Origin: Chromobacterium fluminis
GTDB lineage: Bacteria > Pseudomonadota > Gammaproteobacteria > Burkholderiales > Chromobacteriaceae
Direction: 5' to 3'
DNA: 24,000 bases
NCBI RefSeq assembly: GCF_011602385.1
Contig: NZ_JAAOMA010000010.1
Span: 10,003-34,002 of the forward strand
Of the stretch, positions 905 to 23,710 are shown one piece after another. Every line of letters begins with the position of its first letter. Position 1 is the stretch's first letter. The notes beneath the pieces are model-generated. The model did not search any database, was not told where the DNA came from, and saw only the letters and a list, made by a program, of their open reading frames with translations. The position numbers and the translations under genes are program-made.

Positions 905-2524
<1,620 letters not shown>

Positions 2525-4516: not shown

Positions 4517-6046
4517 TCACAGTGTGTCGAGATTGGCTTGCAGCGCCGCCGCGTGAGCGGCGATAGCGGCTTGTTCGGCATCCGGCAGCTTGTCCAGCTG
4601 GCGATAGACCAGGCTGAGTCGCGGATTGGCCGCCAGCCGCGCGCGGTGGCGCTGGAAAAAGTTCCAGTAGAGGGCATTGAAGGGACAGGCGTCCCGGCCA
4701 ATGCGCAGCTTGGGCTGGTAGCGGCAGCCGGCGCAGTAATCGCTCATGCGGCCGATATAAGCGGCGCTGCCGGCGTAGGGCTTGCTGCCGAGCAGCCCGC
4801 CGTCGGCGAACTGGCTCATGCCCAGAGTGTTGGGCAACTCCACCCATTCGAAGGCGTCGATGTAGACGCCCAAATACCATTCATGCAGCGCCTGCGGCGA
4901 CAGCCCGGCGATCAGTCCGAAATTTCCGATCACCATTAGCCGCTGGATGTGGTGGGCGTAGGCGTCTTCCAGCGATTGGCCGATGGCGTGCGCAAGACAC
5001 CGCATGCCCGTTTCGCCATCCCAGAACCAGCGCGGCAGCGGCAGATCGTGCGACAGGGCGTTATTGTCCCGGTAGCTGGGCATCTTGGCCCAATAGACGC
5101 CTCGCACATATTCGCGCCAGCCCAGTATCTGCCGCACAAAGCCCTCTACCGCGGCCAGTGGCGCGCGGCCTGCGAGCCAGGCGGCGATGGCGGCGTCCAC
5201 CACCTCGCGCGGATTGAGCATTTTCACATTGAGGGCGAAGGAAAGCTGGGAATGAAACAAGCGCCGTGCATGCCGGCTCATCGCGTCCTGATAAGCGCCA
5301 AAGTGCGGCAGAGCCCGCTCGATAAAGTCGCTCAGCAGGGCCTGCGCCTCGGCGCGCTTGAGCGGCCAGCGCAGCGCTTCGGCCTGAGGCTGACCGAAGC
5401 TGCTCACGCCGGCCTCGTTTATGGATTGCCACAGCTTGCGGTGGTCATGCTCAGGGCGAGGGTCATGCGGTTCCGGCGGGCCGCCGGACCAGCGCTGACG
5501 GTTCTCGGCATCGAAATTCCAGCGACCGCCGGCGGGTTCGCCGTTTTCGCCAATCAAAATGCCGTGCTGGCGCCGCAGGTGACGATATAGGGTCTCCTGC
5601 CGCCATTGCCGCCGCGCGCCGAAAAACGCGGCGGCGTCGCCGCGAGCGGTGTAGAAATGCTCGCTGTCCGCCATGTGGCATGGAATGGATAAATCCGCGC
5701 CCCAGTTGGCGAGTTGATGATCCAGCCGCCACTCGTCCGGAGCCTGGTATTCCACCCTCGTCGCGCCGTAGTGGCGAATCAGCGCATCCAAATTGCCGAT
5801 TAACGATTGGCGGTTGCTTCCGTCGTCGATGGCGATGTAGCGCACTCGATGCCCCAAGGTCTTCAGCTGGCGGGCAAAATCACGCATCGCGGCGAAGATG
5901 GCCAGGATTTTCTGCGCGTGGTGGCGTACGTAATCCGTTTCCTGGCGGATTTCCATCATCACATGCACCACCTTGGGGTCGGGGGCGGTGAACCAGCTAT
6001 GATTGGGGTTGAGCTGGTCGCCCAGAATCAGCCGCAAGAGGGTCAT
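4517..6046 (-). CDS. cryptochrome/photolyase-family protein of the FeS-BCP / CryPro type (PhrB/CryB-like, probable (6-4) photolyase)
   Basis: Start trimmed to the ATG at 6046 (MTLLRLILGDQLNPNHSWF, the typical N-terminus of COG3046 proteins). It overlaps the upstream stop as ATGA. Four Cys are arranged as in the [4Fe-4S] site of PhrB: ...MRCLAH... and DYCAGCRYQPKLRIGRDACPFN (C-x2-C-x12-C). Confidence 0.88.
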   Translation of the reverse strand: MTLLRLILGDQLNPNHSWFTAPDPKVVHVMMEIRQETDYVRHHAQKILAIFAAMRDFARQLKTLGHRVRYIAIDDGSNRQSLIGNLDALIRHYGATRVEYQAPDEWRLDHQLANWGADLSIPCHMADSEHFYTARGDAAAFFGARRQWRQETLYRHLRRQHGILIGENGEPAGGRWNFDAENRQRWSGGPPEPHDPRPEHDHRKLWQSINEAGVSSFGQPQAEALRWPLKRAEAQALLSDFIERALPHFGAYQDAMSRHARRLFHSQLSFALNVKMLNPREVVDAAIAAWLAGRAPLAAVEGFVRQILGWREYVRGVYWAKMPSYRDNNALSHDLPLPRWFWDGETGMRCLAHAIGQSLEDAYAHHIQRLMVIGNFGLIAGLSPQALHEWYLGVYIDAFEWVELPNTLGMSQFADGGLLGSKPYAGSAAYIGRMSDYCAGCRYQPKLRIGRDACPFNALYWNFFQRHRARLAANPRLSLVYRQLDKLPDAEQAAIAAHAAALQANLDTL

Positions 6047-20154: not shown

Positions 20155-20730
20155 ATGGCTGCGCGCGCAATCGTCCGGGAGGGCGATACCACTTCACATG
20201 GCGGCACCGTGCTGGAGTCATTCCCCAACTTCAATATCTATGGCAAGAACGCATCCGGCATCGGCCACCGTGGCTACTGTCCGCAGTGCAGGACAGAGTT
20301 CGTCATCGTGGCCGGGGCGCAAAACGTCATCTTCATGGGCAAGAATGTGGCGGTGGAAGGGATGCTCACTTCCTGCGGCGCAGTCCTGATTGCCTCCCAG
20401 TCTCAAGCCACGGTAGATACCGACCCTGGCGCAGCCAAGAGGGTGCCCGGGCCGCTGAGCGCGATGATAGCGGCGGGGGCGCCCTTGCCGGCGGTTGGCC
20501 AGCATTGGATTGGTTTCTCGCTTCCCGCAGAGGAAAATTATGCAGACTTGGTTTGTTTGGTTAACTTCAGTGATGGTAGCTTAAAAGAGGTTAAGTTTGG
20601 TCAAGATGGCTGTGTCAGGATTGATGCTATTGCTGAGATCACCGGGGTTAAAGTCGAATTGAAAAATGATATCGATGTGGATAGTAGCGAGAGCATGACT
20701 CGCACCCTTGCCAATTTGATTGGAGTTTAA
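20155..20730 (+). CDS. PAAR-domain protein (T6SS spike-tip type) with a ~75-aa C-terminal extension domain
   Basis: I prefer the ATG at 20155 (AGGA 5 nt upstream). MAARAIVREGDTTSHGGTVL...GIGHRGYCPQC...VIFMGKNVAVEGMLTSCGAVLIAS shows the GD.T.HGG opening, His/Cys metal-site residues and the closing CGA.LI typical of PAAR proteins. Then come a Pro/Ala linker and a beta-rich tail (aa 116-191). The overlapping 229-aa ORF 19875..20564 is rejected. Confidence 0.85.
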   Translation: MAARAIVREGDTTSHGGTVLESFPNFNIYGKNASGIGHRGYCPQCRTEFVIVAGAQNVIFMGKNVAVEGMLTSCGAVLIASQSQATVDTDPGAAKRVPGPLSAMIAAGAPLPAVGQHWIGFSLPAEENYADLVCLVNFSDGSLKEVKFGQDGCVRIDAIAEITGVKVELKNDIDVDSSESMTRTLANLIGV

Positions 20731-20733
20731 CCA

Positions 20734-21579
20734 ATGACTGACGTGACTTATGGTCGAAGTAGAAGTGCAGGTACTTCAACGATTGGTGGGGTAAGTATCC
20801 CATCGCATAAAATAGAATACTTAGGGCAATATCAAGTCAATAGAAATCATGAACTCGAGTCGCCATTAAAGAGAAGCATTGCGGACATGAAAGGCGCAGC
20901 GGCACGCTTTGCGGCGGATGCTATTAATGATGCGAAAATAAGAGTTTCTTATGAGGGAAATATACAAAGGATGGCGCAAGCTGTTTTAGACGAGGTTCAT
21001 GCGGGCAGTATGACGGCCAAGGAAGGCATGGAGTTTGCTACCGATATGCGGAATAAGATTATGATGGAGCACCGAGCGGTCACTTCGGCACAAGGTGTTG
21101 CCGCAGCGGAAAAACATAAATTAAAAGGACGGACTATCAAGGAGTTATTGGATAAGACTGCTGGGAAAATATTTAATAAAGGTTTCGATAGTCTAACGTC
21201 TGTTGAACAAAATAAGGTTTACTATGCGATTATCGAATCTTCAGCACGACCAAGTGGCACAATAAATACAAGAGTGAAAGTAATAAATGTGATGGGGAAA
21301 GTGGGGTGGGTTGTGACGGCAACCTTGGCTACTTATGCGATTGCTAATGCAGGGGATAAAAAGAAAGAGATAGTGAGGCAAGGGGCTATTATTGGTGGAG
21401 GTATGGCGGGTGGCTATCTGGCAGGTATTCTTGTGACGCCAATATGTGGGCCGGGTGCGCCAATTTGTGCAATTGCTGTTGTCTTGGTAGGTAGTGTTAT
21501 TGGTGCGGGGGTGTCAGAGCACATAGTTGATAGTATTGATGAAGAAATGGAGGAGTTTGCAAAATGGAATATGCAATAA
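20734..21579 (+). CDS. putative PAAR-associated effector: helical domain plus C-terminal glycine-zipper hydrophobic hairpin (colicin-like pore-former candidate)
   Basis: GGAG RBS; the ATG is 3 nt after the PAAR stop. aa 217-260, GAIIGGGMAGGYLAGILVTPICGPGAPICAIAVVLVGSVIGAGV, form a 44-residue hydrophobic hairpin with a central Pro/Gly turn. An amphipathic helical region precedes it (KGRTIKELLDKTAGKIF, SLTSVEQNKVYYAII) and an acidic tail follows (IVDSIDEEMEEF). The CDS call is solid; the function is inferred. Confidence 0.6.
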   Translation: MTDVTYGRSRSAGTSTIGGVSIPSHKIEYLGQYQVNRNHELESPLKRSIADMKGAAARFAADAINDAKIRVSYEGNIQRMAQAVLDEVHAGSMTAKEGMEFATDMRNKIMMEHRAVTSAQGVAAAEKHKLKGRTIKELLDKTAGKIFNKGFDSLTSVEQNKVYYAIIESSARPSGTINTRVKVINVMGKVGWVVTATLATYAIANAGDKKKEIVRQGAIIGGGMAGGYLAGILVTPICGPGAPICAIAVVLVGSVIGAGVSEHIVDSIDEEMEEFAKWNMQ

Positions 21580-22028
21580 CTGCCTTCAGTTTGCTTAAGG
21601 ATGATAAGCCATCAAACGATGGGAATATTTATTACTTCCTATTGTTTGATGGAAATAAAACGGGAGTGAGGACGTATTGTGAATCGATTTTTGCGCAATA
21701 TCATCTAGTTAAAAGCAATAGATATTTAATAGTGTTGGAGAATAGCTATTGGGAGGGGGATGATTATGTTTTTTATCTGCTAGATGCCCGTTGTGAAGTG
21801 CTGGATTGTATGAATGTTATTTGGTTTGAGGGGGACCCTGGGCATATACAGCACTATCAGTTGAGTGATGATGAGTTTTGCTTTGAAAAGTATGAGAACA
21901 ATAAAAAGTATACGCTGAGGATTAGTGATGAGGGGGAGCTCCGTTACTCGGGGGCAGATTTCAAATATAGGGCATTGCTCGACTTCATTAAGCCGCGTAA
22001 ATTTCTGGCCCTGGCTGTGCAGGGGTAA
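21564..22028 (+). CDS. 154-aa soluble protein, paralog 1 (immunity or accessory candidate)
   Basis: The ATG lies inside the last 16 nt of the effector gene (GGAGGAG RBS 8 nt upstream). No signal peptide or TM segment. Clearly homologous to the next gene. Confidence 0.75.
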   Translation: MEYAITAFSLLKDDKPSNDGNIYYFLLFDGNKTGVRTYCESIFAQYHLVKSNRYLIVLENSYWEGDDYVFYLLDARCEVLDCMNVIWFEGDPGHIQHYQLSDDEFCFEKYENNKKYTLRISDEGELRYSGADFKYRALLDFIKPRKFLALAVQG

Positions 22029-22095
22029 TGCCTGCGCCCCTATTCATCTGCTGGGAATGGTAGAGTATGGCCTAGTGAGGGGGAGAGGGAGCTAG

Positions 22096-22560
22096 ATGGC
22101 AAATGCAATAAAAGAATTTGATGTGATAGAAAGCCCAAGAAAGCCAGGGTGTGTGATTGTTTACTTTGATCTTTTGCATAACGGCCAGAAAACAGGCGTC
22201 AAGGTAATGAGCGAGTCGGTTTTTGCTCAGTACTGGATGGAAGATTCTGAACGTTATTTTTTAGTATTTCAGAATGCTCCCTGGGAGGAAACTAATTATG
22301 AATTTTATCTTTTAACAAAAGATTTTCTGGTTTTGGATCGCGTGCATCTATTTTCGCCTGATGGCCGTGATGATGAATTGATTGATAGTTACGAGCTGAA
22401 GGATGGTGTCTTTTCCTTTAGAAAATACGAGAACGGTAATAGGTATAATGTGCTGATTGATAAGAAGGGAAAGATTCGATATGCCTTTAGTGATTTTAAG
22501 TATCGATTAATATCAGGGGCGCTAAAACCGGTCAAGTATCTGCAGTTAACCCCCTTGTGA
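22096..22560 (+). CDS. 154-aa soluble protein, paralog 2 (immunity or accessory candidate)
   Basis: GGGAG RBS. My hand alignment to 21564..22028 gives roughly 35-40% identity with two 1-aa indels (shared blocks GxKTGV, ESxFAQY, RYxxV, YxFYLL, VLD, FxKYEN, RYxxxDFKYR). Confidence 0.75.
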   Translation: MANAIKEFDVIESPRKPGCVIVYFDLLHNGQKTGVKVMSESVFAQYWMEDSERYFLVFQNAPWEETNYEFYLLTKDFLVLDRVHLFSPDGRDDELIDSYELKDGVFSFRKYENGNRYNVLIDKKGKIRYAFSDFKYRLISGALKPVKYLQLTPL

Positions 22561-22603
22561 ATTATCGGAAGGGGAGTATTTTTGGTTGTGCCAGGGAGGT
22601 GGT

Positions 22604-22975
22604 ATGGGGTTTTTGTCTCGATTGTTTAAGTGGAAGTCAAGACGAGCCGTGGAGAAGGTTGTGTTTGATGAGAGTAAAATTATCCATAGCCCATTGAAGG
22701 GTGAGGATATTGAGTTCCATTGGGCCGATCTGAGCGAGGTAAGTATCGAAACCACGGATCAAGGGCCGTTTGTAGATGACGTGTTTTGGGTGCTTGCTGG
22801 AGGTGGTCGGTTTTGTCGCATTTCAAGCAATGCGGAAGGCATGGAGGAACTCTTGGAGAAATTGGGTGAGTTACCTGAGTTTGATCACCAGATGGCTATC
22901 GTTGCGATGAGCGTAGCAACAAACGCAAGGTTTGAATGTTGGAAAAAGCAGGGATTGGTTCCTGTTGAAGCGTAA
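22604..22975 (+). CDS. hypothetical 123-aa protein
   Basis: I prefer the ATG at 22604 (GGGAGG 4 nt upstream) over the track TTG at 22586. MGFLSRLFKWKSRR... No TM segment or signal peptide. Low GC like the rest of the cassette. Confidence 0.65.
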   Translation: MGFLSRLFKWKSRRAVEKVVFDESKIIHSPLKGEDIEFHWADLSEVSIETTDQGPFVDDVFWVLAGGGRFCRISSNAEGMEELLEKLGELPEFDHQMAIVAMSVATNARFECWKKQGLVPVEA

Positions 22976-23047
22976 AGTGCTTAGTTCTGAAACCTATGCA
23001 GGCTAAGTGGCGCTAGAACGGCTTGTTTCTGCTGACCTTGTAATGAT

Positions 23048-23710
23048 ATGCGCATGAATCATTTCGCGGTTTTACTGTTTCTGCCAACATTGGCCTTGGC
23101 TGCTGAGGTGTTTAATGGTTATGAGACCTATTATAGCCGCTTGCCAAATCGCTTATTCCCGTCTCCTAGTGTCGAGCTAGAGCCTTTCAGCCTGGAGGGG
23201 GAACCGGAGGTCCGATATGTTTGGCAGGGCATGGCAGCGGGTCGCCATCATAAGGTAGAGCTGAAAGAGGGCAAGATCATCCTGGATGGGCGGACATGGT
23301 TGGCCAAGTCGATCAGAGCCTTTCCCGGCGAGGTGGTTAATGCAGGCGATCTGGGGAGAGAGGCCGTAGCCTATTTCGCCACCGGTTGGGCATGTGTGGA
23401 AAATACCCCAGCATCGGCCTCGGGTACGGCGGCGAGGCACAAGTCGGTCTACCTGTTGCGCTTGGGCAGATCCAAGCCTCAAGGATGGAAGCTACCCAGC
23501 CTGTTTGCATCCTGTCAGGGCCTTAGGTTTTTGAACGGCCAAGTACGGTTCGACAAGCTTGAGTATCGCTATCGGAGTGGCAAGGATGAGCCGGCTGGGG
23601 TGGTACTCCATGAGTACGCGATTAAGTCCGGCCGATTTGTGCCCTTGGCGGGCAAGCGTTTCGCCTTCTTTGTAGAGGAGGGGAATGTGTATAGATTTTT
23701 GCTTGATTGA
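23048..23710 (+). CDS. hypothetical periplasmic/secreted 220-aa protein
   Basis: Signal peptide MRMNHFAVLLFLPTLALA/AEV (alternative ATG at 23054). Intermediate GC (about 55% in 23221..23280). No recognisable family. Confidence 0.7.
   Translation: MRMNHFAVLLFLPTLALAAEVFNGYETYYSRLPNRLFPSPSVELEPFSLEGEPEVRYVWQGMAAGRHHKVELKEGKIILDGRTWLAKSIRAFPGEVVNAGDLGREAVAYFATGWACVENTPASASGTAARHKSVYLLRLGRSKPQGWKLPSLFASCQGLRFLNGQVRFDKLEYRYRSGKDEPAGVVLHEYAIKSGRFVPLAGKRFAFFVEEGNVYRFLLD

What the first reader, a model, noticed from the sequence alone, without database searches (positions are those of the whole stretch)
20734..21579. 281-aa protein resembles a colicin-type pore-forming domain (helical bundle plus 44-residue hydrophobic hairpin) without any translocation or receptor domain
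aa 217-260 (nt 21382..21513) form a Gly/Ala/Ile/Val-rich stretch with GxxxG-type zippers, split by PICGPGAP. This is the length and shape of the helix-8/9 hairpin of colicins A/E1/Ia. Several blocks recall, from memory, colicin channel-domain blocks. The upstream KGRTIKELLDKTAGKIF recalls GKxIRsxxxAxxxxxK. SLTSVEQNKVYYAII recalls KxxKADRDAIxNA. The amphipathic MGKVGWVVTATLATYAIANAGD and the acidic tail IVDSIDEEMEEF recall ALIDDKFADALNNEI. If this holds, the protein is a free-standing pore-former delivered as PAAR cargo.
Basis: inference. Interest (0 to 1): 0.7.

Follow-up and report, generated by a model that had tools for sequence, protein, structure and literature searches.

The report
PAAR-loaded colicin-like membrane toxin cassette
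This gene encodes an uncharacterised but very widespread bacterial "harpoon" (type VI secretion) toxin that rides on the spike-tip PAAR protein, most likely kills rivals by inserting a glycine-zipper helical hairpin into their inner membrane, and shows a distant, not yet proven, kinship to the channel domain of colicins.

Summary
The ORF (20734..21579, +, 281 aa) and its 44-residue uncharged Gly/Ala/Ile/Val hairpin split by PICGPGAP are real, and are conserved in more than 1000 protein clusters.

**Delivery.** It is the middle gene of a low-GC cassette: PAAR, effector, then two tandem 154-aa soluble proteins. In 69 of 79 related genomes a PAAR protein lies directly upstream. In a Pseudomonas subclade a VgrG takes that place and carries the same ~75-aa C-terminal domain. 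One relative is a covalent PAAR fusion. I consider T6SS cargo delivery well supported.

**Colicin claim: partly supported.**
- Against: no member hits Pfam PF01024. No profile-to-sequence hit to colicin chains is significant. A confident AlphaFold model (pLDDT 88) has no Foldseek match to colicins.
- For: profile-profile comparison with colicin/pyocin channel domains gives 45-92% probability, always in one colinear register.

**Best reading.** This is a new, unannotated family of membrane-inserting, probably depolarising, T6SS effectors, possibly very distant colicin relatives.

**Unlike colicins.**
- The immunity proteins are mostly soluble.
- The invariant residues are polar and lie in the N-terminal helices.
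- The hairpin turn is an invariant C-G-P-G-A-P-x-C.

Toxicity and pore formation are untested.

The parts
20080..20108 (+). Sigma-70-like promoter match just upstream of the PAAR gene; a possible cassette promoter.
   Evidence: Consensus scan, 9 of 12 matches. The number of sites found in the region is not above shuffle expectation, so this is weak evidence.
20140..20730 (+). PAAR spike-tip protein, 196 aa. The PAAR domain is aa 14-85 (nt 20179-20394).
   Evidence: Pfam PF05488, E 9.5e-20. PAAR homologues lie directly upstream of the effector in 69 of 79 loci.
20506..20727 (+). C-terminal extension domain of the PAAR protein (aa 123-196), motif WIxFxxP..Y.GLxC...F.DGS...G.F...N. Proposed docking socket for the effector.
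   Evidence: The same domain ends the VgrG proteins upstream of effectors in L040/L047/L058/L061/L063/L068. Pairwise BLAST E-values are 1e-13 to 7e-8. An HMM built from it finds it directly upstream of 60 of 67 full-length effectors. The docking role is inferred.
20734..21579 (+). Effector, 281 aa: a putative membrane-inserting T6SS cargo toxin.
   Evidence: There are no Pfam, NCBIfam or PDB sequence hits.
20863..21000 (+). Long N-terminal helix (aa 44-89) carrying the invariant polar residues D66, R70 and Y73. It lies largely outside the colicin-aligned region (the global alignments begin at aa 76-82).
   Evidence: AF2 helix 44-89, pLDDT >80. Invariant columns in A4. The hhalign local alignment starts at aa 95.
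21016..21534 (+). Region aligned colinearly with colicin/pyocin channel domains (aa 95-267, against colicin E1 channel residues 14-184).
   Evidence: hhalign 86.2%, P 5e-6; 45%; 76-87%.
21286..21351 (+). First, weakly hydrophobic helix (aa 185-206). The conserved charged loop aa 207-216 follows it.
   Evidence: Kyte-Doolittle 0.91, one charged residue. Conservation profile.
21382..21525 (+). Glycine-zipper hydrophobic helical hairpin (aa 217-264).
   Evidence: No charged residue in aa 217-260. Small residues at i/i+4 are conserved in 85-98% of 107 sequences. AF2 helices 209-238 and 243-280, pLDDT about 90.
21445..21468 (+). Hairpin turn C-G-P-G-A-P-I-C (aa 238-245).
   Evidence: C238, G239 and C245 are invariant in A2, and P240, G241, A242 and P243 are >=90% conserved. 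G239 and P240 are >90% conserved in the broad alignment A4.
21529..21576 (+). Acidic C-terminal tail D-S-I-D-E-E-M-E-E-F-A-K-W-N-M-Q. Proposed spike-loading motif. It also encodes the translation signals of the next gene.
   Evidence: Variants of the tail occur in the sampled loci from the 79-locus set, while the two Bryobacterales loci without a spike gene lack it. It is also absent from the PAAR-fused P0194 and from most distant relatives.
21550..21566 (+). Shine-Dalgarno GAGGAG (codons E273-E274) plus the ATG (inside codons K277-W278) of the downstream gene. The two genes overlap by 16 nt.
   Evidence: Sequence. The same -15 offset is seen in most of the 79 loci.
21564..22028 (+). Putative immunity protein 1, 154 aa, soluble, with no TM segment or signal peptide.
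   Evidence: Translationally coupled to the effector. It is 40% identical to the gene at the same position in C. violaceum. It aligns full-length with the gene downstream of the effector in Bryobacterales. It belongs to no Pfam family. The immunity function is inferred.
22096..22560 (+). Putative immunity protein 2, a tandem paralogue (154 aa).
   Evidence: 39% identical to protein 1, E 3e-35.
22586..22975 (+). Small soluble ORF (129 aa) at the end of the low-GC cassette. Function unknown; possibly an orphan immunity gene.
   Evidence: ORF list. No Pfam or NCBIfam hit. It lies within the low-GC stretch.
23048..23710 (+). 220-aa protein with an N-terminal signal-peptide-like segment. Possible periplasmic accessory or second immunity protein.
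   Evidence: It has a homologue (27% identity, E 3e-7) directly downstream of the effector in Iodobacter L064. The link to the cassette is tentative.
20600..23000 (.). Low-GC cassette (about 39-47% GC against about 56-60% in the flanks).
   Evidence: Composition profile.

Best explanation
**What it is.** The gene encodes an antibacterial type VI secretion cargo effector belonging to a large, unannotated family.

**In the producer cell (inferred).**
- The toxin folds as a soluble all-helical protein.
- It docks by non-covalent contact onto the ~75-aa C-terminal extension of the PAAR protein encoded 3 nt upstream, probably through its acidic D-E-E-h-E-E-F-x-x-W tail.
- The translationally coupled soluble 154-aa protein(s) encoded next keep it harmless.

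**In the target cell (inferred).**
- The three C-terminal hydrophobic helices insert into the inner membrane. The key element is the glycine-zipper hairpin aa 217-264 with its C-G-P-G-A-P-x-C turn.
- They self-associate through the zipper faces and form an ion-conducting pore or leak that collapses the membrane potential.

**Relation to colicins.** aa 95-267 is colinear with the ten-helix channel domain of colicins and may be a very distant homologue of it.

**Shown:**
- gene order and its conservation;
- the PAAR/VgrG shared domain;
- the natural PAAR fusion;
- conservation of the hairpin;
- borderline profile similarity to colicins.

**Inferred:**
- toxicity;
- the membrane as target;
- pore formation;
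- the roles of the tail and of the downstream proteins.
For: **T6SS link.**
- PAAR (PF05488) lies directly upstream in the window and in 69 of 79 loci from Pseudomonas, Stutzerimonas, Xenorhabdus, Providencia, Aeromonas, Enterovibrio, Burkholderia, Pandoraea, Iodobacter and others.
- In the VgrG-linked subclade a complete VgrG sits upstream (Phage_GPD, T6SS_Vgr, DUF2345).
- Its C-terminus carries the same domain as the PAAR extension.
- P0194 is a PAAR-linker-effector fusion.
- P0196 lies downstream of a VgrG fragment.

**Toxin-immunity logic.**
- A downstream gene starts at the same -15 overlap in most loci, but it belongs to different families.
- The families are:
  - DUF7079, 54 members in the clustering, E down to 4e-30;
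  - an IMM1-type 154-aa protein in Chromobacterium and Bryobacterales;
  - tandem 2-3-TM proteins in the VgrG subclade.
- The cassette has low GC.
- The homologous cassette in C. violaceum is mobile and sits inside a prophage.

**Membrane activity.**
- The hairpin is 44 residues long and uncharged, and its glycine zipper is conserved.
- One subclade has membrane-protein immunity.
- There is a published precedent for soluble proteins that sequester the glycine zipper of a depolarising toxin before secretion: ExiAB for EsxX (PMC12744356).

**Colicin link.**
- hhalign gives 86% / P 5e-6, 92% in global mode, and 76-87% with a trimmed 37-sequence colicin profile.
- The hairpin-free N-part alone scores 31.9, against shuffles of 15.6 +/- 2.3 with a maximum of 19.6.
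- Decoy families score <=1.1%.
Against: - PF01024 does not hit any of 46 members at E<=1.
- Profile-versus-PDB searches find no significant colicin match.
- The narrow family profile gives only 1-5% by hhalign, and an untrimmed colicin alignment gives 45%.
- The immunity candidates in the window are soluble. Colicins, Ssp4 and Tme all have membrane immunity proteins.
- The invariant residues are polar and N-terminal (R70, Y73, R106, R114, K129). That pattern fits a binding or catalytic site better than a simple pore.
- No experiment exists for any member, and no paper was found on the family or on DUF7079.
Confidence: 0.6

Rival explanations
1. The hydrophobic helices are only a membrane anchor or translocation device. 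The toxic activity resides in the conserved N-terminal helical domain, which would bind or modify a specific membrane-proximal or cytoplasmic target. The soluble downstream proteins would neutralise that domain in the cytoplasm.
For: - The only strictly invariant residues of 107 diverged relatives are polar and lie in the N-terminal helices: R70, Y73, R106, R114 and K129, with D66 and N107 above 90%.
- Immunity candidates in the main clade are cytoplasmic soluble proteins.
- In P0196 the domain sits N-terminal to a 1100-residue extension that ends in an Endonuclease_NS_2 nuclease. That suggests a carrier or translocation role there.
- A glycine zipper is required for membrane translocation of the T6SS DNase Tde1 (PMC10240207, listed).
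Against: - No enzymatic family or fold matches the N-domain.
- Part of that same N-domain (aa 95-216) is the part that aligns with colicin helices 1-7.
- One subclade has 2-3-TM immunity proteins, which points to action in the membrane.
- Many distant relatives consist of nothing but this domain.
Confidence: 0.22
2. It is a genuine glycine-zipper depolarising T6SS toxin, but it is unrelated to colicins. The hhalign signal would then reflect convergent architecture: amphipathic helices followed by a C-terminal hydrophobic hairpin.
For: - Pfam, profile-to-sequence and Foldseek tests for colicin are all negative.
- hhalign probability depends on how the alignment is built, ranging from 1% to 92%.
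- Against the A/B/N/S4 colicin subgroup alone it is only 5-27%.
- The predicted helices are much longer than colicin helices.
Against: - The register is identical in all runs and spans 160-183 columns.
- The hairpin-free part still scores about 7 SD above block shuffles.
- Reversed and decoy controls score <=3%.
Confidence: 0.4
3. It is not a toxin. It would be a structural or co-effector accessory of the PAAR spike, for example a membrane-piercing or tip-sharpening helper, and the downstream genes would be unrelated.
For: Toxicity is untested. The protein always travels with a spike protein.
Against: - The polymorphic downstream genes are translationally coupled and swap family at a fixed junction, sometimes in tandem arrays. 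That is the signature of toxin-immunity pairs.
- The cassette is horizontally mobile.
- Members occur without any spike gene (L076/L078).
Confidence: 0.05

Closest known systems
Pore-forming colicin / pyocin S5 channel domain (Pfam PF01024; colicins E1, Ia, Ib, A, B, N, S4)
   Same: - All-helical, with a C-terminal ~40-residue uncharged helical hairpin followed by a short polar helix.
- The order of blocks is colinear.
- hhalign probability is 45-92% in one register.
- It can exist as a soluble protein that must later insert into the inner membrane.
   Different: - No PF01024 hit and no Foldseek similarity.
- The hairpin is a canonical glycine zipper with an invariant C-G-P-G-A-P-x-C turn.
- A third hydrophobic helix and an extra conserved N-terminal helix are present.
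- There are no receptor or translocation domains; delivery is by T6SS on PAAR/VgrG.
- Immunity is mostly soluble rather than a 3-4-TM protein.
Colicin-like T6SS effectors VasX / TpeX (PA5265) / TseVF and the BTH_I2691 family (Tke5)
   Same: They are T6SS-delivered, spike-associated, membrane-depolarising effectors described as colicin-like or pore-forming (abstracts and passages read).
   Different: - TseVF is 1197 aa and VasX/TpeX are, from my own recollection, of similar size; Tke5 carries an N-terminal MIX domain and TseVF a LysM domain. The present family is 235-281 aa.
- The present family is loaded through a dedicated PAAR/VgrG C-terminal domain.
Glycine-zipper depolarising toxins (Tse5-CT of P. 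aeruginosa; T7SS EsxX, TelE; CDI ionophore CdiA-CTs)
   Same: - Conserved GxxxG-type zipper in hydrophobic helices.
- Expected depolarisation.
- For EsxX, a soluble cytoplasmic immunity pair sequesters the zipper and separate membrane immunity proteins act outside the cell. That parallels the soluble and 2-3-TM downstream proteins seen here.
   Different: - Different secretion contexts: Rhs cage, LXG, CdiA.
- No sequence hit to any PDB chain, including deposited T6SS effectors.
- The helical N-domain with invariant polar residues is specific to this family.
Ssp4, Ssp6 (Serratia), Tse4 (P. aeruginosa), Tme1/2 (Vibrio), TpeV (V. cholerae)
   Same: They are small free-standing T6SS effectors that depolarise or permeabilise target cells, with the immunity gene directly downstream.
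   Different: - Ssp4 is 331 aa, has a beta-sheet, is proposed by its authors to be Hcp-delivered, and has the 4-TM immunity protein Sip4.
- Ssp6 is restricted to Enterobacterales.
- Tse4 is modelled as a beta-barrel.
- Tme has a DxxK motif, one TM helix and DUF1240 immunity.
- TpeV has 11 Cys and no TM region.
- None of these features fits the present family.

Membership tests
Colicin pore-forming domain (Pfam PF01024) | Match to the PF01024 profile at or near the gathering threshold | tested here: not met
   There is no PF01024 hit at E<=1 for the window protein or for any of 46 relatives. True colicin-like proteins found with the same tools all carry PF01024.
Colicin pore-forming domain (Pfam PF01024) | Profile-profile homology to channel domains of solved colicins | tested here: inconclusive
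   - hhalign gives 86.2% / P 5e-6 against 8 sequences.
- It gives 44.7% against 38 untrimmed sequences and 76-87% after trimming.
- It gives only 1-5% with the narrow family profile.
- The register is consistent, and the score is above shuffled, reversed and decoy controls.
Colicin pore-forming domain (Pfam PF01024) | C-terminal uncharged helical hairpin of about 40 residues (helices 8-9) | tested here: met
   aa 217-260: 44 residues, no charge, Kyte-Doolittle 1.71. It is predicted as two helices joined by a tight turn.
Colicin pore-forming domain (Pfam PF01024) | Ten-helix globular bundle fold similar to solved colicin structures | tested here: not met
Colicin pore-forming domain (Pfam PF01024) | Integral inner-membrane immunity protein | tested here: not met
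   The window's downstream proteins have no TM segment. 2-3-TM proteins occur only in the VgrG-linked subclade.
Colicin pore-forming domain (Pfam PF01024) | Voltage-dependent ion channel activity and depolarisation | not testable with these tools
   This needs electrophysiology or dye assays.
T6SS cargo effector loaded on PAAR/VgrG | Encoded directly next to a spike component | tested here: met
   - In the window the PAAR gene ends 3 nt upstream.
- PAAR is upstream in 69 of 79 loci, and VgrG in a subclade.
T6SS cargo effector loaded on PAAR/VgrG | The same toxin domain exists as a covalent ('specialised') fusion to a spike protein | tested here: met
   P0194 is PAAR (aa 21-88), a linker, then this domain (aa 187-408).
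T6SS cargo effector loaded on PAAR/VgrG | Cognate immunity gene immediately downstream | tested here: inconclusive
   A translationally coupled gene at a fixed -15 overlap is conserved in position. Three families are interchangeable at that position. Protection was not tested.
T6SS cargo effector loaded on PAAR/VgrG | T6SS-dependent secretion and killing | not testable with these tools
   There are no T6SS core genes in the window. The rest of the genome was not available.
Glycine-zipper membrane-depolarising toxins | Conserved (G/A/S)xxx(G/A/S) ladder on a hydrophobic helix | tested here: met
   Positions 223/227/231/235 and 253/257 are small residues in 85-98% of 107 sequences.
Tme family (Vibrio Tme1/Tme2) | DxxK motif followed by a single TM helix, with DUF1240-like immunity | tested here: not met
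   The family features come from PMC7046647. Here the conserved loop is N-A-[DE]-N-K-x-K-E between hydrophobic helices. The downstream proteins are DUF7079 or unassigned, never DUF1240.
Ssp4 / Ssp6 / Tse4 families | Sequence homology to the founding members | not tested
The published descriptions differ in length, beta content, Hcp delivery, immunity type and taxonomic range.

The most novel reading that the evidence does not exclude
The colicin channel domain may be one offshoot of a much larger, unrecognised superfamily of T6SS (and possibly other) membrane-insertion modules, with more than 1000 clusters spanning Pseudomonadota to Acidobacteriota. Three features would set the superfamily apart:
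- **A plug-and-socket loading system.** An acidic D-E-E-h-E-E-F-x-x-W tail fits a ~75-aa domain that is interchangeable between PAAR and VgrG C-termini.
- **Neutralisation in the cytoplasm.** Soluble proteins (DUF7079 or IMM1-type) sequester the glycine-zipper hairpin. The toxin would therefore be dangerous from the cytoplasmic face, with separate membrane or periplasmic proteins protecting against incoming toxin.
- **Reuse as a translocation device.** The module would carry other toxins across the inner membrane. [quoted passage not shown]
Probability: 0.25. Interest if true: 0.7.

Novelty: new variant of a known kind. Interest (0 to 1): 0.55.

Why it matters
- **A missing family.** Pore-forming T6SS effectors are few and each known one defines its own family. 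This family is among the most widespread: 1064 clusters at 50% identity. It occurs in Pseudomonas, Burkholderia, Xenorhabdus, Aeromonas, Chromobacterium and others. It is annotated everywhere as 'hypothetical protein' and has no Pfam model.
- **Origin of bacteriocins.** If the colicin link holds, it ties a classic soluble bacteriocin module to contact-dependent weaponry and gives a handle on where bacteriocin channel domains came from.
- **A loading rule.** The domain shared by PAAR and VgrG C-termini suggests a simple, testable rule for how cargo is matched to spikes. That would be useful for effector prediction and for engineering T6SS payloads.
- **Immunity.** The soluble immunity families (DUF7079 and the IMM1 type) would gain a function. 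They would extend the 'compartment-specific immunity' idea, so far shown only for a T7SS toxin, to Gram-negative bacteria.

Tried and rejected
**Searches that found nothing.**
- Single-sequence and narrow-profile searches (Pfam, NCBIfam, PDB phmmer/hmmsearch) gave nothing.
- tblastn against the phage collection found no match. tblastn against plasmids found only three Burkholderiales chromid or megaplasmid hits.
- A literature search for DUF7079 returned nothing.

**Structure work.**
- The first AF2 model, built from 46 close relatives, was poor (pLDDT 61), and its Foldseek search was uninformative.
- It was replaced by a model built from 107 diverse relatives (pLDDT 88).
- Model coordinates are not exposed to scripts. 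A direct superposition on colicin structures was therefore impossible.

**Known families checked and rejected.** I rejected identity with these on their published features:
- Tme;
- Ssp4;
- TpeX/VasX;
- TpeV;
- TseVF;
- Tse4.

**Immunity and tail analyses.**
- The window's 154-aa proteins are not distant DUF7079 members (hhalign 0.1%).
- A strict regular expression for the acidic tail produced false 'discordant' loci. On inspection these carry tail variants.

**GxxxG statistic.** The GxxxG count in the single sequence is not significant by shuffling. The case for the zipper rests on conservation across the family.
Full report
**1. Observation**

The ORF 20734..21579 (+) is open for 281 codons.
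- It starts 3 nt after the stop of the upstream gene, with a GGAG 8 nt before its ATG.
- Residues 217-260 (nt 21382-21513) read GAIIGGGMAGGYLAGILVTPICGPGAPICAIAVVLVGSVIGAGV. This stretch has 44 residues, none charged, a mean Kyte-Doolittle value of 1.71, and five GxxxG motifs.
- In this single sequence the number of GxxxG motifs is not beyond chance (5 against 2.8 +/- 1.5 in shuffles).

The protein is nevertheless real and conserved.
- It is identical to a Chromobacterium haemolyticum hypothetical protein and has 114 close relatives.
- A full-library profile search finds 1064 cluster representatives with E<=1e-3, 224 of them with E<=1e-30.
- Across 107 diverged relatives the zipper positions (223/227/231/235, 226/230, 253/257) are small residues in 85-98% of sequences, and G239 and P240 of the turn are more than 90% conserved. 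In the 46 closer relatives (A2) the turn C-G-P-G-A-P-x-C is invariant or nearly so.

**2. Surroundings**

The gene is the second of a co-directional cassette:

| Coordinates | Product |
|---|---|
| 20140..20730 | PAAR protein, 196 aa (PF05488, E 9.5e-20) |
| 20734..21579 | The effector |
| 21564..22028 and 22096..22560 | Two tandem 154-aa soluble paralogues, 39% identical |
| 22586..22975 | A 129-aa ORF |
| 23048..23710 | A 220-aa protein with a signal-peptide-like N-terminus |

- GC content falls from about 58% to about 39-47% from the 3' part of the PAAR gene to about 23000. That is typical of an acquired toxin cassette.
- The rest of the window holds housekeeping genes and no T6SS core genes: a GroEL paralogue, a cfa/DUF1365 cluster, a TetR regulator and a bgl operon.
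- The first 154-aa gene overlaps the effector by 16 nt. Its Shine-Dalgarno sequence (GAGGAG) is formed by codons E273-E274 of the effector, and its ATG lies inside the K277-W278 codons.

**3. Comparative context**

I retrieved 79 loci from species-representative genomes.

*Upstream gene.*
- A PAAR protein of about 181-220 aa lies directly upstream in 69 loci.
- In a Pseudomonas subclade (257-aa effectors) the upstream gene is instead a complete VgrG (Phage_GPD, Phage_base_V, T6SS_Vgr, DUF2345).
- The last ~75 residues of these VgrGs are homologous to the C-terminal extension of the PAAR proteins. The shared motif is WIxFxxP..Y.GLxC...F.DGS...G.F...N, and pairwise E-values are 1e-13 to 7e-8.
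- An HMM of this domain finds it directly upstream of 60 of 67 full-length effectors.
- One relative, P0194, is a covalent fusion of PAAR, a disordered linker and the effector. It lacks both the extension domain and the acidic tail.

*The acidic tail.*
- Variants of the tail (D/E-E-h-x-E-F-x-x-W) are present in every effector of the locus set whose C-terminus I inspected, except two.
- The two Bryobacterales loci have no spike gene nearby and no tail.
- Most distant relatives also lack the tail.
- I infer, but have not shown, that the tail plugs into the PAAR/VgrG extension domain.

Together these data strongly support 'T6SS cargo delivered on PAAR'.

**4. Downstream genes**

In most loci a gene starts at the same -15 overlap, but it belongs to interchangeable families.

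| Family | Features | Where found |
|---|---|---|
| DUF7079 (PF23296) | Soluble, about 118-130 aa, E down to 4e-30 | 54 members in the clustering |
| IMM1 type | 154 aa, soluble | The window; C. violaceum (40% identity); full-length alignable with the gene downstream of the Bryobacterales effectors |
| 2-3-TM proteins | 131-153 aa, often in tandem | The VgrG-linked subclade; L068 has both a DUF7079 and a TM protein |

- A conserved junction, swapping of families and tandem duplication are the signature of toxin-immunity pairs.
- Soluble immunity is unusual for membrane toxins, but there is a precedent. The T7SS glycine-zipper toxin EsxX is neutralised before secretion by the soluble ExiAB, which sequesters its zipper, and outside the cell by the membrane proteins ExiCD (PMC12744356).

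**5. Is it a colicin-type domain?**

*Direct tests are negative.*
- Pfam PF01024 hits neither the protein nor any of 46 relatives at E<=1.
- NCBIfam gives nothing.
- phmmer and two family profiles against all PDB sequences find no significant colicin hit. Colicin S4 scores E 3.9, over the hairpin only.

*Profile-profile comparison gives a signal.*
- I rebuilt colicin/pyocin channel-domain sequences from plasmid ColE1 and from PDB alignments. I later added 30 PF01024 proteins.
- With the narrow family alignment (Neff 2.9), hhalign gave only 1-5%.
- With a diverse 107-sequence alignment (A4) it gave:
  - 86.2%, P 5e-6, over 160 columns (aa 95-267 against colicin E1 channel residues 14-184);
  - 92% in global mode;
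  - 44.7% against the untrimmed 38-sequence alignment;
  - 76-87% after trimming that alignment to the channel domain.
  - GRTIKELLDKTA aligns with GKKIGNVNEALAAF (helix 3);
  - LTSVEQNKVYYAII aligns with FSKADRDAIFNALAS (helix 4);
  - MGKVGWVVTATLATYAI aligns with helices 5/6;
  - the hairpin aligns with helices 8/9.

*Controls.*
- Block-shuffled colicin columns give a maximum local score of 31.9 and a maximum global score of 20.9. The real scores are 40.6 and 37.7.
- With the hairpin removed, the N-part alone still scores 31.9 (49%, P 1.7e-4). Shuffles give 15.6 +/- 2.3 with a maximum of 19.6.
- Reversed profiles score <=3%.
- Unrelated decoy families (DUF7079 and the 2-TM proteins) score <=1.1% against either profile.
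- The positive control, E1-type against A-type colicins, scores 99.6%.

*Structure.*
- The AF2 model from the diverse alignment is confident: pLDDT 88.1, pTM 0.77.
- It has helices at 44-89, 95-116, 119-128, 135-147, 156-169, 175-204, 209-238 and 243-280.
- Foldseek against the PDB finds no colicin and nothing significant. The best E is 0.29 with TM <=0.26.
- In the hhalign register the three long C-terminal helices each span two colicin helices (H5+6, H7+8, H9+10). The model may therefore depict a more extended arrangement than the compact colicin bundle.

*Verdict.* Membership in PF01024 is not demonstrated. A distant relationship is plausible, at roughly even odds. Similarity of architecture is clear.

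**6. Mechanism**

My best-supported reading has overall confidence of about 0.6. Confidence is about 0.9 for 'T6SS antibacterial effector' and about 0.6 for 'acts by membrane insertion and depolarisation'.
- The effector is made together with its soluble partner protein(s).
- It is loaded on the PAAR extension through its acidic tail and fired into a neighbour.
- There its three hydrophobic helices insert into the inner membrane, oligomerise through the glycine zippers and dissipate the membrane potential.

*Shown:* synteny, the shared spike domain, the PAAR fusion, conservation of the hairpin, the polymorphic coupled downstream genes, and TM-protein immunity in one subclade.

*Inferred:* everything about activity.

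*Rivals.*
- (a) The conserved polar N-terminal domain (R70, Y73, R106, R114, K129 invariant) carries a specific binding or enzymatic activity, and the hairpin is an anchor or translocator. The soluble immunity proteins support this. So does P0196, a 1360-aa VgrG-linked protein with this domain at its N-terminus and an Endonuclease_NS_2 domain at its C-terminus.
- (b) It is a true zipper toxin but only convergent with colicins.
- (c) It is a non-toxic spike accessory. I consider this unlikely.

**7. Comparison with known systems**

- It is not Tme, which has a DxxK motif, a single TM helix and DUF1240 immunity.
- It does not look like Ssp4, which is 331 aa, has a beta-sheet, is thought to be Hcp-delivered and has the 4-TM Sip4.
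- It does not look like Ssp6, which is found only in Enterobacterales.
- It does not look like Tse4, which is modelled as a beta-barrel.
- It does not look like TpeV, which has 11 Cys and no TM region.
- It does not resemble TseVF (1197 aa) or the VasX-like TpeX, nor Tke5, which carries an N-terminal MIX domain.
- No paper on this family or on DUF7079 was found.

I therefore file it as a new variant within the known kind 'T6SS membrane-targeting, pore-forming effectors'. It has three distinctive features:
- a PAAR/VgrG-shared loading domain;
- mostly soluble immunity;
- an invariant Cys-flanked hairpin turn.

**8. Other things seen**

- In C. violaceum the homologous three-gene cassette lies inside a prophage tail module, between the tail-assembly chaperone and the tape-measure gene.
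- Relatives with an N-terminal PG_binding_1 domain exist.
- The 220-aa signal-peptide protein at 23048..23710 has a homologue directly after the effector in Iodobacter.

**9. Scores**

- Interest 0.55. It is a widespread, unannotated effector family with testable loading and immunity rules and a possible deep link to colicins. But it belongs to a known functional kind, and its activity is untested.

Noticed in passing
L080/L081 5429-7286 (C. violaceum contigs); homologous to window 20140-22028: The homologous cassette (PAAR, effector, 152-aa immunity) sits inside a siphovirus-type prophage tail module, between the tail-assembly-chaperone and tape-measure genes. It is a T6SS effector cassette carried as a phage moron. 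No match was found in the INPHARED phage collection.
   Followed up: partly
window 21550-21579: The ribosome-binding site (GAGGAG) and start codon of the downstream gene are encoded by the conserved E-E and K-W codons of the effector's acidic tail. The 16-nt overlap (offset -15) is kept in most of 79 loci, even where the downstream gene belongs to a different family.
   Followed up: yes
window 20506-20727; L058 about 5700-5935 and other VgrG loci: A ~75-aa domain (WIxFxxP..Y.GLxC...F.DGS...G.F...N) with no Pfam model ends both PAAR and VgrG proteins that precede these effectors. It is a candidate interchangeable cargo socket.
   Followed up: partly
L087 1832-5914 (P0196): A 1360-aa protein lies downstream of a VgrG fragment. 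It carries this domain at its N-terminus and an Endonuclease_NS_2 nuclease at its C-terminus, followed by a 144-aa gene. This suggests the domain can act as a membrane-translocation carrier.
   Followed up: partly
window 23048-23710: A 220-aa protein has a signal-peptide-like N-terminus (MRMNHFAVLLFLPTLALAAEV). A 27%-identical homologue lies directly between the effector and a DUF7079 gene in Iodobacter L064. It may be a second, periplasmic immunity or accessory protein.
   Followed up: partly
window 22586-22975: A 129-aa soluble ORF at the 3' end of the low-GC cassette has no family assignment. It may be an orphan immunity gene.
   Followed up: no
P0164, P0223, P0252 (broad family); P0165 looks similar by eye but has no Pfam hit: Relatives of 458-517 aa carry an N-terminal PG_binding_1-like domain ahead of this domain, which hints at a periplasmic site of action. 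The one locus examined, that of P0165 (L086), shows no T6SS gene on its short contig.
   Followed up: partly
P0205, P0218, P0224, P0242 and others (L088/L089): A subfamily of about 345 aa lacks the CGPGAP turn. It has a ~110-aa C-terminal extension and a 149-aa gene overlapping upstream. Its function is unknown.
   Followed up: no
PDB 9ki1_g: The best PDB sequence hit of the broad profile (E 0.014) is the glycine-rich region of a phage tape-measure protein. This is probably only shared glycine-zipper composition.
   Followed up: no
window 905-2518 (-): A 537-aa Cpn60/GroEL-family gene stands alone, with no adjacent groES-sized ORF in the >=120-aa ORF list. It is unrelated to the finding.
   Followed up: no
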